From assembly GCF_001677475.2 (NCBI RefSeq), contig NZ_CP015229.1: a stretch of DNA of 64,000 bases; one strand, 5' to 3'. Shown here one piece after another: positions 24,001 through 30,000 of this stretch. Within the stretch, counting starts at the first letter, position 1, and the number at the start of each line of letters is the position of its first letter. Position numbers: made by a program. This stretch comes from Escherichia coli. GTDB taxonomy: Bacteria > Pseudomonadota > Gammaproteobacteria > Enterobacterales > Enterobacteriaceae.

Positions 24001-27000
24001 GATACGTCCTACCGCCGGGAACGCATTTTTGCGACCGGCCCAGAAACGTACGCGCTCTGCTTCGTCCTGTGCCAGACGGACGTCAGTCGCGCCCGCTTTC
24101 AGCAAGATGTCGTTAACCCGCTCGCAGTCTTCCTGTACGTCAGACTCCACGCCGTCCAGCTCGCACAACAAAATCGCTTCGGCGTCGACGGGATAACCGG
24201 CATGAATAAAATCTTCCGCCGCGCGGATCGACAGGTTATCCATCATCTCCAGCCCGCCGGGGATAATGCCATTGGCGATGATGTCACCGACGGCGAGTCC
24301 GGCTTTTTCTACCGAGTCAAAGCTGGCTAACAGAACCCGCGCCACGGGCGGCTTCGGCAACAGCTTCACCGTTACTTCGGTGGTCACGCCGAGCATACCT
24401 TCCGATCCGGTGAACAGCGCCAGCAGGTCAAAACCAGGCGAATCCAGCGCGTCCGATCCCAGCGTCAGCGCCTCGCCGTCCAGCGTTTGCACTTCAATTT
24501 TCAGCAGGTTATGTACGGTCAGACCATATTTCAGGCAGTGGACGCCACCGGCATTTTCCGCCACATTGCCGCCAATTGAACAGGCGATTTGTGAGGAAGG
24601 ATCCGGCGCGTAATAGAGATTATGCGGCGCAACGGCCTGGGAGATCGCCAGGTTACGCACGCCCGGCTGCACGCGCGCGCGGCGACCAACGGGGTTAATG
24701 TCGAGGATTTCTTTAAAGCGCGCCATCACCAACAACACACCTTTTTCCAGCGGCAGCGCGCCACCAGAAAGCCCGGTGCCTGCACCACGGGTCACCACCG
24801 GTACACGCAGGCGGTGGCAGACAGCCAGAATCGCTGTCACCTGTTCCATTTGCTTAGGCAGAACAACCAGTAATGGACGCGTGCGATACGCGCTCAACCC
24901 GTCACACTCGTAAGGAATGATCTCCTCATCGGTATGCAGGATCTCCAGTCCAGGGGCATGCTCACGCAGTGCCATCAGTACCGATGTGCGGTCGACATCG
25001 GGTAAAGCGCCATCAAGACGCTCTTCGTACAAGATGCTCATGAGTAGGCTTCGCTTTGTTGTTTTGTGTGGCAGCTGATTTTTGCGCGCTGCTTCTGTGA
25101 ACAGTTATTAAGCGGGCTTTTTGTTTTCGTCTATCTCTTTAGCTACCGGTCAGACCATTTTTTTTTCCAGCTCTGTGACCTTGCATTGGTTAACTTAATG
25201 TTAAATTGATGTAACATAATCACTTACGTGATGTGCGTGTTTTGCGAATTAAGAACAGAAAAATTGGTCCTACCTGTGCACGAGGTCCGGGAATGAAAGA
25301 TGAGCGTCGCCCTATTTGCGAAGTGGTTGCAGAGAGTATCGAACGGTTAATTATCGACGGCGTACTGAAGGTCGGTCAGCCGCTTCCCTCGGAACGTCGA
25401 CTGTGTGAAAAGCTCGGCTTCTCACGCTCCGCACTGCGTGAAGGGCTGACCGTGCTGCGCGGGCGCGGGATTATTGAAACGGCGCAGGGTCGCGATTCTC
25501 GTGTCGCACGGCTTAATCGGGTGCAGGACACCAGCCCGCTAATTCATCTGTTCAGCACGCAGCCGCGAACGCTGTACGATCTGCTCGACGTTCGCGCATT
25601 GCTGGAGGGTGAATCGGCAAGGCTTGCGGCAACGCTGGGAACCCAGGCTGATTTTGTTGTGATAACCCGCTGTTATGAAAAAATGCTCGCCGCCAGTGAG
25701 AACAACAAAGAGATTTCGCTGATCGAACATGCGCAGTTGGATCACGCTTTCCATCTCGCCATTTGTCAGGCTTCTCACAATCAGGTGTTGGTGTTTACGC
25801 TGCAATCATTGACCGATCTGATGTTTAATTCAGTGTTTGCCAGCGTAAATAATCTCTACCATCGACCACAGCAAAAAAAGCAGATCGATCGCCAGCATGC
25901 GCGGATCTACAACGCGGTGTTGCAGCGGCTGCCGCACGTCGCCCAGCGCGCAGCACGCGATCATGTGCGGACCGTGAAAAAGAATCTCCACGATATCGAG
26001 CTGGAAGGCCACCATTTGATTCGCTCGGCGGTGCCGCTGGAGATGAACAAGGTGGGAATGTGAGCCGAGTTTTCACCCTCACCCTAACCCTTTCCCCGAG
26101 GGGCGAGGGATCGCCCCTGCGCTTAACAGGATCTGGTATTAAATTTGCTTTTCATACAATCGGTAACGCTTGTACGGCTCTGCCCCAATGCGTTCCAGCA
26201 TGTTATTCATGCCTGTATTGGTTTCGAGGATCCATGACATCTCCAGCGCATCGATCTTCCGGCGGGCAAACGGATCGCGTAAGGCTTCAATCAATAACAG
26301 CGCAATCACCGGGCCGATGCGGCTGAACTGATACTCGTCCCGCACGCCCATCAGCGGCACTCGCGCAGTTCGCACACCGCTGACTTTCAAACGCCACAGC
26401 AATTTTGCCCAGCCGAAGGGAAAGAGCGATCCGTTCAGATCGGCAATCGCCTCGTTGATGTTTGGCAAGCCGACAATAAACGCGCAGGGTGCAGAATCAA
26501 TCTCAGCGATGTAGATCATATCGTCCGGCACCAGGTATTTAAGCTGATCGCCCATGGTCGCGAATTCATGTTCGGTAAACGGCACAAATCCCCAGTTGTG
26601 CTGCCAGCCAGAGTTGAAAATCTCACGCAGGATCTGCATCTCTTCGGCAAACCGCTGACGATTGATGCAGCGAATGGTCACCTTTTTGCGCACCTGATCC
26701 ATCAGTTTTTTTAGCGCCGGAGAGAAAGTGAGATCGGTTCGCTGCATCCACCACGCCAGTAAATCAATGCCTTTGTGATAACCCAGTTGTTCAATATGCG
26801 CGGCATACCACGGTTTGCCGTGTGGCATCATCGCACAGGGTGGTGTGTCAAAACCTTCAATCAGTAATCCGCTTTCCTGATTGATATTCAGGCTGAAAGG
26901 CCCGCTGATCTTACTTGCACCTTGTGACTTCAACCACGCTTCCGCTGCGCCAAACAACGCGGCAAAAACCTGCGGCTCATCAATGGCGTCAATCATGCCG

Positions 27001-30000
27001 AAATGACCGGTATCTTCGCCGTAACACTCGCGGTGTAAGGTATCGATTTGCGCGGTAATACGCCCAACTATCTGCCCCGCTTTTTTTGCCACCCACGCCT
27101 GCCAGATGATATGGTCCGTCCCCGGATTCTTCGCAGACAAATGCTCGCTGCGTTCAATGAATAAAGGGGGTATCCAGTTTGGATCATCGGGATAAAGTGA
27201 TGACGGAAAAGCGATAAATGCCTTAAGGTCATTTTTATTAATTACTTTTTCAATTTTGATCATCAGCAGATCGCATTCCATAGTTCTGTGGGTAACAAAT
27301 AATTAACGGTGAAAAACAGGTTGCAACAGCAACGAACGGCATCTTAATAATCAACCCAATGAATACAAACGACGAATAAATAGTATTTATTAATGATTAC
27401 GATAAGGTCAGAGACTACACAGAAGCGCCACAATGCCTTTTGTCGATTTAAGGCGACCGGACAAGGCTTCTTCTTAATATATTCATAAATTAAATATCAT
27501 TCACAATAAAAACAAAAAAACTCAAACTCATTATTTAAATCAATGTTCATTTTCACACTGATGAAAATACTATCTCATTTATCTTTTATGCCTATATAAT
27601 CCACCGCATTATTGTCATTTTATTTTTGATATCCAATTTTTTCGTGGTGTATATGTCTAATAAAATCTTTACGCATTCCCTACCTATGCGCTATGCCGAT
27701 TTTCCAACGCTGGTTGATGCTTTGGACTACGCCGCTCTGAGTAGCGCCGGAATGAATTTTTATGACAGACGTTGCCAACTTGAACATCAACTGGAATATC
27801 AGACGTTAAAAACGCGCGCCAAAGCTGGTGCGAAGCGGTTGTTATCGCTGAACCTGAAAAAAGGCGATCGCGTGGCGCTGATTGCCGAAACGAGTAGCGG
27901 GTTTGTAGAGGCTTTTTTTGCCTGTCAGTATGCCGGCTTAGTCGCCGTCCCGTTGGCGATTCCAATGGGCGTCGGTCAGCGGGATTCCTGGAGCGCCAAA
28001 CTCCAGGGTTTACTGGCAAGTTGCCAGCCCGCAGCCATTATCACTGGTGATGAGTGGTTGCCACTGGTCAATGCCGCGACGCATAACAACAACCCCGAAT
28101 TACATGTTTTAAGCCACGCCTGGTTTAAGGCATTACCGGAAGCCGATGTTGCGCTCCAGCGTCCAGTTCCGAACGATATCGCCTACCTCCAGTACACCTC
28201 CGGCAGCACCCGTTTTCCCCGTGGCGTCATTATCACCCATCGCGAAGTGATGGCTAATCTACGTGCTATAAGCCACGATGGCATAAAATTACGCCCTGGC
28301 GACCGCTGCGTCTCCTGGCTGCCTTTCTACCATGATATGGGACTGGTCGGCTTTCTCCTGACCCCCGTCGCCACGCAGCTTTCAGTAGATTATTTGCGCA
28401 CTCAGGATTTTGCCATGCGTCCTCTGCAATGGCTTAAATTGATCAGTAAAAATCGCGGCACCGTTTCCGTTGCGCCGCCGTTTGGCTATGAATTGTGCCA
28501 GCGCCGCGTGAATGAAAAAGATCTCGCTGAACTGGATCTTTCCTGCTGGCGCGTCGCTGGTATTGGTGCAGAACCCATCTCCGCAGAACAACTCCATCAA
28601 TTCGCTGAATGTTTCCGTCAGGTCAACTTTGACGATAAAACTTTCATGCCGTGCTACGGACTGGCAGAAAATGCGCTGGCTGTCAGCTTCTCTGATGAAG
28701 CTTCCGGGGTTGTGGTTAACGAAGTGGATCGCGACATCCTCGAATATCAGGGCAAAGCCGTCACGCCGGATGCTGAAACACGCGCCGTATCGACTTTCGT
28801 CAACTGCGGTAAAGCGTTGCCGGAACATGGCATTGAAATCCGCAATGAAGCAGGTATACCTGTCGCGGAACGTGTGGTAGGCCATATTTGCATCTCCGGC
28901 CCTAGCCTGATGAGCGGTTACTTTGGCGACCAGATTTCACAAGACGAGATTGCCGCGACGGGCTGGTTAGACACCGGCGACCTCGGTTATCTGCTGGACG
29001 GTTATCTGTATGTCACCGGACGCATTAAAGATCTGATTATTATTCGTGGCCGTAATATCTGGCCGCAGGATATTGAATATATTGCGGAACAGGAACCGGA
29101 AATTCATTCTGGCGATGCGATTGCTTTTGTTACCGCCCAGGAAAAAATCATTTTGCAGATCCAGTGTCGGATCAGCGATGAAGAACGTCGCGGGCAGCTT
29201 ATCCACGCGCTGGCAGCACGGATCCAAAGCGAATTTGGCGTGACCGCGGCTATCGATCTGTTGCCGCCCCACAGTATTCCCCGAACGTCCTCCGGCAAGC
29301 CTGCCCGTGCGGAAGCGAAAAAACGTTATCAGAAGGCTTATGCTGCAAGCCTTCATGTGCAGGAATCCCTGGCATGAATCAAACTGTCGCGGTGACGGGC
29401 GCTACCGGGTTTATCGGTAAATATATTATCGATAACCTGCTCGCCCGCGGCTTTCACGTTCGCGCATTGACGCGTACTGCCCGCGCTCACGTCAATGACA
29501 ATCTCATCTGGGTGCGCGGTTCTCTGGAAGATACTCATTCACTTAGCGAACTGGTTGCCGGAGCCAGCGCAGTGGTCCATTGCGCCGGGCAAGTGCGCGG
29601 GCACAAAGAAGAGATTTTTACCCGCTGTAACGTTGACGGCAGCCTGCGACTGATGCAAGCGGCAAAAGAGAGCGGCTTTTGCCAACGTTTTCTGTTTATC
29701 TCTTCGCTGGCGGCGCGCCATCCCGAACTCTCCTGGTACGCAAATTCCAAACACGTCGCCGAACAACGGCTGACTGCAATGGCTGATGAAATTACGCTGG
29801 GCGTTTTTCGCCCGACAGCCGTGTATGGTCCCGGCGATAAAGAGTTAAAACCGCTGTTTGACTGGATGCTGCGCGGCCTGCTGCCACGACTTGGTGCGCC
29901 AGATACACAACTCTCTTTCCTGCACGTCACCGATTTCGCGCAAGCCGTGGGGCAGTGGTTAAGCGCCGAAACTGTACAGACGCAAACCTATGAATTATGC

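What the first reader, a model, noticed from the sequence alone, without database searches (positions are those of the whole stretch)
26139..27281. YghO as candidate N-acyltransferase partner of the aminolipid operon
yghO is divergently transcribed from the acyl-ligase operon across a shared AT-rich spacer. Bacterial ceramide synthases are GNAT-family acyltransferases usually encoded near spt. YghO has no recognisable nucleotide-binding or DNA-binding motif and a length and composition compatible with an acyl-CoA N-acyltransferase fold. If so, it would complete a condensation, N-acylation and reduction pathway.
Basis: inference. Interest (0 to 1): 0.6.

Follow-up and report, generated by a model that had tools for sequence, protein, structure and literature searches.

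The report
YghO: E. coli's predicted ceramide synthase
YghO is an intact two-domain GNAT acyltransferase sitting back-to-back with the E. coli sphingolipid (spt) operon and is very probably its ceramide synthase, but the literature already assigned it this role by homology in 2022.

Summary
A 380-codon ORF lies at 26139-27281 (-). It diverges from a fatty-acyl-AMP-ligase / SDR / ACP / spt operon across a 371-bp spacer of 31% GC.

In 80 species genomes, 72 YghO homologues lie within 10 kb of sphingolipid genes, and 43 have the ligase immediately upstream and divergent. Natural fusions join the YghO fold to a fatty-acyl-AMP ligase and to a fatty-acid hydroxylase.

It is not new. Padilla-Gomez et al. 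2022 (PMC9386255) list "yghO ECD_02850" as the E. coli orthologue of Caulobacter CC_1154. That gene (Aca/CerS/bCerS) is required for ceramide synthesis. They report 44% identity, E 1e-107, 98% coverage.

I found no biochemical or genetic test of the E. coli protein. I could not compare YghO directly with CC_1154.

Verdict: correct inference, already known, low novelty.

The parts
26139..27281 (-). yghO CDS (380 aa; possible alternative start at Met7, nt 27263): predicted bacterial ceramide synthase (bCerS/Aca/CerS family)
   Evidence: ORF and translation. RefSeq name. AF2 model pLDDT 96.5. It keeps 46 of the 47 columns that are at least 85% conserved across 76 homologues.
26739..27257 (-). N-terminal GNAT-like domain (about residues 9-181)
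   Evidence: DSSP elements of the model (model numbering is ORF numbering minus 1). Whole-length alignment to tandem GNATs 7q3a, 5kf1, 2wpw and 1ozp.
26145..26681 (-). C-terminal GNAT domain (about residues 201-379), the likely acyl-donor-binding and catalytic domain
26163..26363 (-). GNAT motif A/B segment (R307...Y373), including Q318-F-S-R-I-G323 at the pyrophosphate-binding loop position
   Evidence: The family profile aligns here to motif A/B of GNAT 2ge3, weakly (E 0.028) but collinearly. Residues read. Conservation.
27282..27652 (.). 371-bp AT-rich (31% GC) divergent intergenic spacer shared by yghO and the ligase operon; presumed promoters of both
   Evidence: The consensus promoter scan was not above chance. 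No Rfam family.
27653..29377 (+). aasR: fatty acyl-AMP ligase / acyl-AcpR synthetase
   Evidence: NF006624, 871.7 bits against a cut-off of 600. The BL21 orthologue ECD_02851 acylates AcpR-Ec (PMC9386255).
29374..30288 (+). SDR/epimerase-family reductase (cerR/epi homologue)
   Evidence: Listed as epi ECD_02852 in PMC9386255.
30320..30568 (+). acpR: specialised acyl carrier protein
   Evidence: AcpR-Ec carries 4'-phosphopantetheine (PMC9386255).
30568..31740 (+). spt: serine palmitoyltransferase
   Evidence: NF047599 equivalog, 599.7 bits against a cut-off of 500. SPT-Ec forms 3-oxo-sphinganine (PMC9386255).
31775..32854 (-). lptG paralogue (lptG2), putative sphingolipid exporter subunit
   Evidence: TIGR04408, 303 bits. 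RefSeq coordinates. Role in Caulobacter from bioRxiv 10.64898/2026.04.12.717747.
32851..33921 (-). lptF paralogue (lptF2)

Best explanation
YghO is the enterobacterial orthologue of the bacterial ceramide synthase, called bCerS, Aca or CerS (Caulobacter CC_1154 = CCNA_01212). It is a soluble or peripheral tandem-GNAT acyltransferase. Proposed pathway: AasR loads a fatty acid onto AcpR. Spt condenses acyl-AcpR with serine to give 3-ketosphinganine. YghO transfers a second acyl chain from an acyl thioester to the C2 amine, giving oxidised ceramide. The donor would be acyl-CoA or possibly acyl-AcpR, bound by the C-terminal GNAT domain, with the lipid amine held between the two domains. The SDR then reduces the 3-keto group, and the LptF2/G2 paralogues export the lipid. 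What is shown here: the fold, the conserved residues and the conserved gene neighbourhood. What is shown by others: the activities of E. coli Spt, AcpR and AasR, and the requirement for the Caulobacter orthologue. What is inferred: the catalytic activity of YghO itself, its acyl donor, and the order of acylation and reduction in E. coli.
For: (2) Sequence. The family profile aligns to GNAT motif A/B. PF00583 is hit by 26 of 76 homologues at E<=0.1 and by 6 at E<=0.001. YghO keeps 46 of 47 highly conserved columns. No 19-residue window reaches transmembrane hydrophobicity (maximum Kyte-Doolittle 1.36).
(3) Synteny. In 80 species genomes, 72 loci have AasR, SDR, AcpR, Spt or LptF2/G2 homologues within 10 kb (48 of the 51 loci with full flanks). 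Spt is present in 42, and a divergent ligase lies immediately upstream in 43. The pairing persists although the outer flanking gene changes: glcC in E. coli, dgkA in Serratia, uspA in Pluralibacter. Distant homologues of 43-50% identity sit in Caulobacter-type loci with DAGK_cat, Tam41, NTP_transf_3 and LptF2/G2 genes.
(4) Fusions. P0188 joins a YghO-like domain to a fatty acyl-AMP ligase. P0131 joins FA_hydroxylase (PF04116, E 1e-18) to a YghO-like domain.
(5) Literature. CC_1154 against ECD_02850 (yghO) gives 44% identity, E 1e-107 and 98% coverage, and the gene is explicitly listed as aca. CC_1154 is required for dihydroceramide formation. BL21 expressing the Spt, AcpR and AasR genes also made spots migrating like sphinganine and ceramide, which the authors attributed to ECD_02852 and ECD_02850.
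Against: I found no enzymatic or knockout data for E. coli YghO. YghO itself does not reach any Pfam or NCBIfam model. The canonical motif A first glycine is Arg321 in E. coli, and the usual motif B tyrosine is not conserved in the alignment to 2ge3, so the catalytic residues are unidentified. I could not obtain the CC_1154 sequence, so the direct comparison rests on a published table. A few family members have no recognisable sphingolipid neighbours: the second Shimwellia copy L019 and the Luteibacter loci L073 and L079. About 414 complete E. coli genomes retain yghO without spt.
Confidence: 0.85

Rival explanations
1. YghO is a GNAT with an unrelated acceptor, such as a protein lysine or a small-molecule amine, and its position next to the spt operon is incidental.
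For: GNATs are functionally promiscuous, and databases name the family only 'N-acetyltransferase'. The closest solved folds acetylate sugars or thiols (GlmA, MshD). yghO persists in about 414 E. coli genomes that lack spt. A second Shimwellia copy and the Luteibacter copies lack sphingolipid neighbours.
Against: Linkage to sphingolipid genes holds in 72 of 80 species across several phyla and despite changing outer flanks. There are fusions to a fatty acyl-AMP ligase and a fatty-acid hydroxylase. The Caulobacter orthologue is required for ceramide synthesis. In the GNAT overexpression screen of Christensen et al., YghO was on the plasmid list but not among the enzymes that produced lysine acetylation; note that the K-12 allele has an IS5-altered N-terminus. 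The spt-less genomes are explained in K-12 by an IS5-associated deletion, not by independent maintenance.
Confidence: 0.08
2. YghO is the N-acyltransferase but works in the eukaryote-like order, on sphinganine after reduction by the SDR, and/or uses acyl-AcpR rather than acyl-CoA. This is a variant of the main explanation, not a different identity.
For: Olea-Ozuna and Padilla-Gomez propose reduction before acylation. A YghO-ligase fusion (P0188) and the invariant adjacency to aasR and acpR are compatible with an acyl-ACP donor.
Against: In Caulobacter, oxidised ceramide accumulates in a cerR mutant. [quoted passage not shown] Nothing has been measured for E. coli.
Confidence: 0.25
3. YghO is a DNA-binding transcriptional regulator of the divergent operon, as in the legacy K-12 annotation, or a dATP pyrophosphohydrolase, as in a legacy name on homologues.
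For: The only support is database names: 'putative DNA-binding transcriptional regulator YghO' in NC_000913, and 'DNA-binding protein' or 'dATP pyrophosphohydrolase' on some homologues. Divergent orientation is typical of local regulators.
Against: No HTH or Nudix domain is found in Pfam or NCBIfam. The entire chain is accounted for by two GNAT domains at pLDDT above 90.
Confidence: 0.02

Closest known systems
Caulobacter crescentus bacterial ceramide synthase bCerS / Aca / CerS (CC_1154 = CCNA_01212)
   Same: The published comparison gives 44% identity over 98% of the length, E 1e-107. The length is about the same (~380 aa). Homologues are linked to aasR, cerR, acpR, spt and lptF2/lptG2. [quoted passage not shown]
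   Different: In E. coli the gene sits directly back-to-back with the aasR-cerR-acpR-spt operon. In Caulobacter it lies several genes away, beside lptG2/lptF2. The E. coli locus lacks the Caulobacter CerK/CpgD/Tam41-type head-group genes and instead carries ytfJ, yghQ, yghR, yghS and yghT. The E. coli enzyme is untested.
Solved tandem-GNAT enzymes: MAB_4324 (7q3a), glucosamine N-acetyltransferase GlmA (5kf1), clavulanate ORF14 (2wpw), mycothiol synthase MshD (1ozp)
   Different: Sequence identity is only 12-14%. These enzymes use acetyl-CoA and hydrophilic acceptors. YghO is 40-90 residues longer and is expected to take a long-chain acyl donor and a lipid amine.
N-myristoyltransferase (2p6e), a tandem GNAT using a long-chain acyl-CoA
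   Different: It is a much weaker structural match, its acceptor is a peptide N-terminus, and it is eukaryotic.
Eukaryotic ceramide synthases (Lag1/CerS, TLC domain)
   Same: The same overall reaction: N-acylation of a sphingoid base.
   Different: They are unrelated multi-pass membrane proteins. YghO is a soluble GNAT with no TLC-domain hit. This is the convergent evolution described for bCerS, as in the title of Stankeviciute et al. 2022 cited.

Membership tests
bCerS / Aca / CerS (CC_1154 family) | Full-length sequence homology to CC_1154/CCNA_01212. An operational filter used in the field is E<=1e-30 with coverage >=50% (PMC11334938). | not tested
   I could not retrieve the CC_1154 sequence with these tools. 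Published value for CC_1154 against ECD_02850 (yghO of BL21): E 1e-107, 44% identity, 98% coverage (PMC9386255 Table S2). This passes the filter.
bCerS / Aca / CerS (CC_1154 family) | Genomic association with spt, cerR, acpR, aasR and/or lptF2/lptG2 | tested here: met
   In the window the gene diverges from aasR-SDR-acpR-spt, with lptG2/lptF2 following. Of 80 species loci, 72 have such genes within 10 kb.
bCerS / Aca / CerS (CC_1154 family) | Soluble or peripheral protein without transmembrane helices | tested here: met
   Maximum 19-residue Kyte-Doolittle hydropathy is 1.36. The model is a globular alpha/beta fold. bCerS is a peripheral membrane protein.
bCerS / Aca / CerS (CC_1154 family) | Acyl transfer to 3-ketosphinganine or sphinganine, and a requirement for ceramide formation in vivo | not testable with these tools
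   There is only indirect evidence: ceramide-like TLC spots in BL21 expressing the Spt, AcpR and AasR genes, which the authors attributed to ECD_02850.
GNAT superfamily | GNAT alpha/beta fold | tested here: met
GNAT superfamily | Motif A pyrophosphate-binding loop Q/R-x-x-G-x-G/A | tested here: inconclusive
   YghO has Q318-F-S-R321-I-G323. The Gln and the last Gly are present, but the first Gly is Arg. G323 is at least 90% conserved in the 12-sequence alignment (listed there as G322).
GNAT superfamily | Match to Pfam Acetyltransf_1 (PF00583) | tested here: not met
   YghO itself gives no hit even at E<=10. Among 76 homologues, 6 hit at E<=0.001 and 26 at E<=0.1. Membership of the superfamily therefore rests on fold and family-level signal.
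FemAB / aminoacyl-tRNA-dependent transferases | FemAB-type tandem GNAT with a coiled-coil insertion and a Pfam FemAB match | tested here: not met
   No Pfam hit. FemX (7z6a) appears only at Foldseek rank 49 with E 1e-8 and TM 0.45.
Eukaryotic CerS (TLC/Lag1) | Multi-pass membrane TLC domain | tested here: not met
   No Pfam hit and no transmembrane segment.
HTH transcriptional regulators (legacy K-12 annotation) | A DNA-binding domain | tested here: not met
   No such domain in Pfam or NCBIfam. The whole chain is GNAT fold.

The most novel reading that the evidence does not exclude
The enterobacterial locus (yghO, the aasR-cerR-acpR-spt operon, and lptG2-lptF2-ytfJ-orf274-yghQ-yghR-yghS plus yghT) makes a YghO-dependent ceramide that is turned into a so far undescribed E. 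coli outer-membrane sphingolipid. Its head-group chemistry would differ from Caulobacter's, with the dTMP-kinase-like YghR/S/T acting as lipid kinases in place of CerK and the Cpg enzymes. YghO might take its acyl chain directly from acyl-AcpR rather than from acyl-CoA. About three quarters of complete E. coli genomes would then be latent sphingolipid producers, and K-12 lost the trait through an IS5-associated deletion.
Probability: 0.3. Interest if true: 0.6.

Novelty: already known. Interest (0 to 1): 0.2.

Why it matters
E. coli is the textbook example of a bacterium without sphingolipids. Yet 4134 of 5426 complete E. coli genomes carry spt and 4548 carry yghO. YghO would be the enzyme that commits the Spt product to ceramide. 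The assignment corrects the lingering K-12 annotation 'putative DNA-binding transcriptional regulator'. It also explains why K-12 gives no phenotype: IS5 removed the partner operon and the first codons of yghO. The assignment itself has been in the literature since 2022, so the open question is experimental: what lipid E. coli makes, and when.

Tried and rejected
- Pfam and NCBIfam on YghO returned nothing.
- A PDB sequence search with the single sequence gave only chance hits. The family profile gave weak GNAT hits, best 0.028.
- The 76-sequence alignment was too diverse for the search for related loci, so I rebuilt a 12-sequence alignment.
- I tried to find the Caulobacter CC_1154 sequence through cluster names in two look-ups and did not find it. 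The top AFDB50 hits also did not include it.
- Stankeviciute 2022 and Olea-Ozuna 2021 are not held in the library, so bCerS biochemistry is cited only through later open papers.
- The sigma-70 and terminator scan of the spacer was not above shuffled expectation: 2 promoter-like sites against 3.0 expected.
- There is no Rfam family in 25000-38000, and only trivial AT-rich inverted repeats in the spacer.
- I first expected the ~80% identical Serratia, Pantoea and Erwinia homologues to lack spt, which would have argued against a link. Their contigs show the same divergent operon, so that objection was dropped.
- Numbering caveat: alignments A1 and A2 and the model start at Glu2, because I trimmed the start codon rather than the stop codon. 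Their residue numbers are ORF numbers minus 1.
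Full report
**Observation.** The window is E. coli-type chromosome. The stretch 25000-32000 is 98.4% identical to E. coli LR-31 and is found in 4592 of 5426 complete E. coli genomes.

The local gene order is as follows:
- glcDEFGB on the minus strand
- glcC on the plus strand, ending at 26063
- yghO on the minus strand, 26139-27281, 380 aa
- a 371-bp spacer
- a plus-strand operon: fatty acyl-AMP ligase (27653-29377), SDR/epimerase (29374-30288), ACP (30320-30568) and spt (30568-31740)
- on the minus strand: lptG and lptF paralogues, a YtfJ-family gene, a 274-aa gene with no family match, yghQ, yghR and yghS
- yghT on the plus strand

The spacer is 31.0% GC, against 50-53% for its neighbours. 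The one open detail is the start codon. Homologues in other genera are 374 aa and start at the equivalent of Met7, and neither ATG has a convincing ribosome-binding site.

**What YghO is.** The single sequence gets no Pfam, NCBIfam or PDB-sequence match. The family is nevertheless very large. There are 6419 representatives at 50% clustering with E<=1e-3 and 1105 with E<=1e-30, and nearly all are full-length proteins of 370-400 aa.

With a 76-sequence alignment, AlphaFold2 gives a model at mean pLDDT 96.5 and pTM 0.93. The model consists of two consecutive GNAT-type alpha/beta domains, about residues 9-181 and 201-379.
- Foldseek agrees, with E 6e-16.
- A family profile aligns the last ~70 residues to motif A/B of a classical GNAT.
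- PF00583 is detected in 26 of 76 homologues at E<=0.1.
- YghO retains 46 of the 47 columns that are at least 85% conserved, so it is not a decaying copy.
- It has no transmembrane-grade hydrophobic window.

The motif A loop reads Q318-F-S-R-I-G323, which is only a partial match to Q/R-x-x-G-x-G/A. The usual motif B tyrosine is absent, so the catalytic residues remain unassigned.

The legacy names 'DNA-binding transcriptional regulator' and 'dATP pyrophosphohydrolase' have no support in the sequence or the fold.

**Link to the spt operon.** I expected the ~80% identical homologues in Serratia, Pluralibacter and related genera to be unlinked to spt. They are not. The same divergent ligase-SDR-ACP-spt operon sits next to them, although the gene on the other side differs: dgkA, uspA or glcC.

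More distant homologues of 43-50% identity lie in Caulobacter-type sphingolipid loci. These carry the ligase and SDR upstream, and NTP-transferase, metallophosphatase, DAGK_cat kinase, Tam41-like and LptF2/G2 genes downstream.

A scan of one genome per species returned 80 loci from Enterobacterales, Pseudomonas, Nitrosomonas, Nitrospirota, Desulfobacterota, Gemmatimonadota and others. tblastn with the window's own proteins gave these counts:
- 72 of 80 loci have at least one of AasR, SDR, AcpR, Spt, LptF2 or LptG2 within 10 kb. For loci with full flanks the figure is 48 of 51.
- Spt is present in 42 of 80.
- A divergent ligase lies immediately upstream in 43 of 80.

For a gene that occurs at most about once per genome, this is far beyond chance.

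The loci with no match to the window's proteins are mostly short contigs. Three have full flanks: two Luteibacter loci, and L087, which still has an NTP-transferase-like gene directly downstream. A second Shimwellia copy (L019, slightly shorter flank) also lacks them.

Two natural fusions point the same way. P0188 joins a YghO-like domain to a fatty acyl-AMP ligase. P0131 joins a fatty-acid hydroxylase domain to a YghO-like domain. One source even names a homologue 'Hypothetical protein associated with Serine palmitoyltransferase'.

**What is already published.** Padilla-Gomez et al. 2022 (PMC9386255) worked on this very locus in BL21(DE3).
- They showed that AcpR-Ec is a phosphopantetheinylated ACP, that AasR-Ec loads it, and that SPT-Ec makes 3-oxo-sphinganine.
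- Their figure legend lists 'aca: CC_1154, yghO ECD_02850'.
- Their Table S2 gives E 1e-107, 44% identity and 98% coverage for CC_1154 against ECD_02850.

CC_1154/CCNA_01212 (Aca, CerS, bCerS) is one of the five genes required for dihydroceramide formation in Caulobacter. [quoted passage not shown]

A 2026 preprint draws the E. coli UTI89 sphingolipid operons alongside those of Caulobacter and Sphingomonas, and shows that LptF2/G2 are needed for sphingolipid export in Caulobacter.

YghO had also been counted among E. coli GNATs in 2018. It was on the plasmid list of a screen for lysine acetyltransferases but was not among the enzymes reported to give acetylation.

I found no paper reporting an enzymatic or genetic test of E. 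coli YghO, nor one linking yghQ/R/S to sphingolipids.

**Mechanism proposed.**
1. AasR adenylates a fatty acid and loads AcpR.
2. Spt condenses acyl-AcpR with serine to give 3-ketosphinganine. This step is shown for the E. coli proteins.
3. YghO binds an acyl thioester in its C-terminal GNAT domain and N-acylates the sphingoid amine held at the interdomain cleft. This step is inferred.
4. The SDR reduces C3. This step is inferred, and its order relative to acylation is disputed in the field.
5. LptF2/G2 extract the lipid for export. This is by analogy with Caulobacter.

I put 0.85 on YghO being the ceramide synthase of this locus. The acyl donor and the order of steps are open.

**K-12.** In MG1655, IS5 (IS5LO/insH9) abuts yghO. 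It replaces the first nine codons with IS-derived sequence and takes the place of everything from aasR to the 5' part of yghQ. This explains why 4548 genomes have yghO but only 4134 have spt. It also explains why work in K-12 could not reveal the function.

**Verdict.** The novelty is nil for the assignment itself. The residual interest lies in the untested biochemistry and in the unknown final lipid of the enterobacterial locus.

Noticed in passing
window 33952-39109: A set of genes travels with the spt operon in Enterobacterales: a YtfJ-family gene, a 274-aa protein with no family match, the MOP-flippase-like yghQ, and three dTMP-kinase-like P-loop genes yghR, yghS and yghT that score far below the dTMP kinase cut-off. 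Homologues of the 274-aa protein and of YghQ lie within 10 kb of the YghO homologue in several other enterobacterial genera, including Serratia, Mangrovibacter, Cedecea, Rosenbergiella, Hafnia, Erwinia persicina and Pseudocitrobacter; YtfJ is found in most of these, and dTMP-kinase-like genes were seen only in the Serratia loci. This holds even where lptF2/G2 are absent. The locus lacks the Caulobacter CerK/CpgD/Tam41 head-group genes. These genes may build a different head group. No paper was found linking them to sphingolipids.
   Followed up: partly
L089 (E. coli K-12 NC_000913.3 3129043-3132408) compared with window 26139-36697: In K-12 an IS5 element (IS5LO, insH9) abuts yghO and occupies the place of the aasR-SDR-acpR-spt-lptG2-lptF2-ytfJ-orf274 genes and the 5' part of yghQ. 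The K-12 YghO (390 aa) has 19 IS-derived residues in place of residues 1-9. About 414 complete genomes have yghO but no spt.
   Followed up: partly
P0188, P0131, P0121 (metagenomic homologues): There are three multi-domain variants. P0188 (940 aa) is a YghO-like domain fused to a fatty acyl-AMP ligase. P0131 (630 aa) is an FA_hydroxylase domain (PF04116) fused to a YghO-like domain. P0121 (784 aa) appears to contain two YghO-like halves. I did not check whether these are real fusions or gene-calling merges.
   Followed up: partly
L019 compared with L010 (Shimwellia pseudoproteus); L073 and L079 (Luteibacter): Shimwellia carries two YghO paralogues. One (84% identity) lies next to the spt operon. 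The other (73%) sits after a der/engA-like gene with no sphingolipid neighbours. The Luteibacter copies lie upstream of an RND-efflux-like operon. Some family members may therefore have another substrate.
   Followed up: no
window 26064-26138: The 76-bp gap between the convergent 3' ends of glcC and yghO contains a GC-rich stretch (…ccctcaccctaaccctttccccgaggggcgagggatcgcccctgcg…). In K-12 the yghO stop lies only about 7 bp from glcC. It may be a REP-like insertion or a bidirectional terminator. The repeat finder reported no inverted repeat at the settings used.
   Followed up: no
window 27653 compared with 27626/27644: The mechanical ORF for the ligase starts at TTG 27626. RefSeq and homologues support ATG 27653 (MSNKIF…).
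   Followed up: yes
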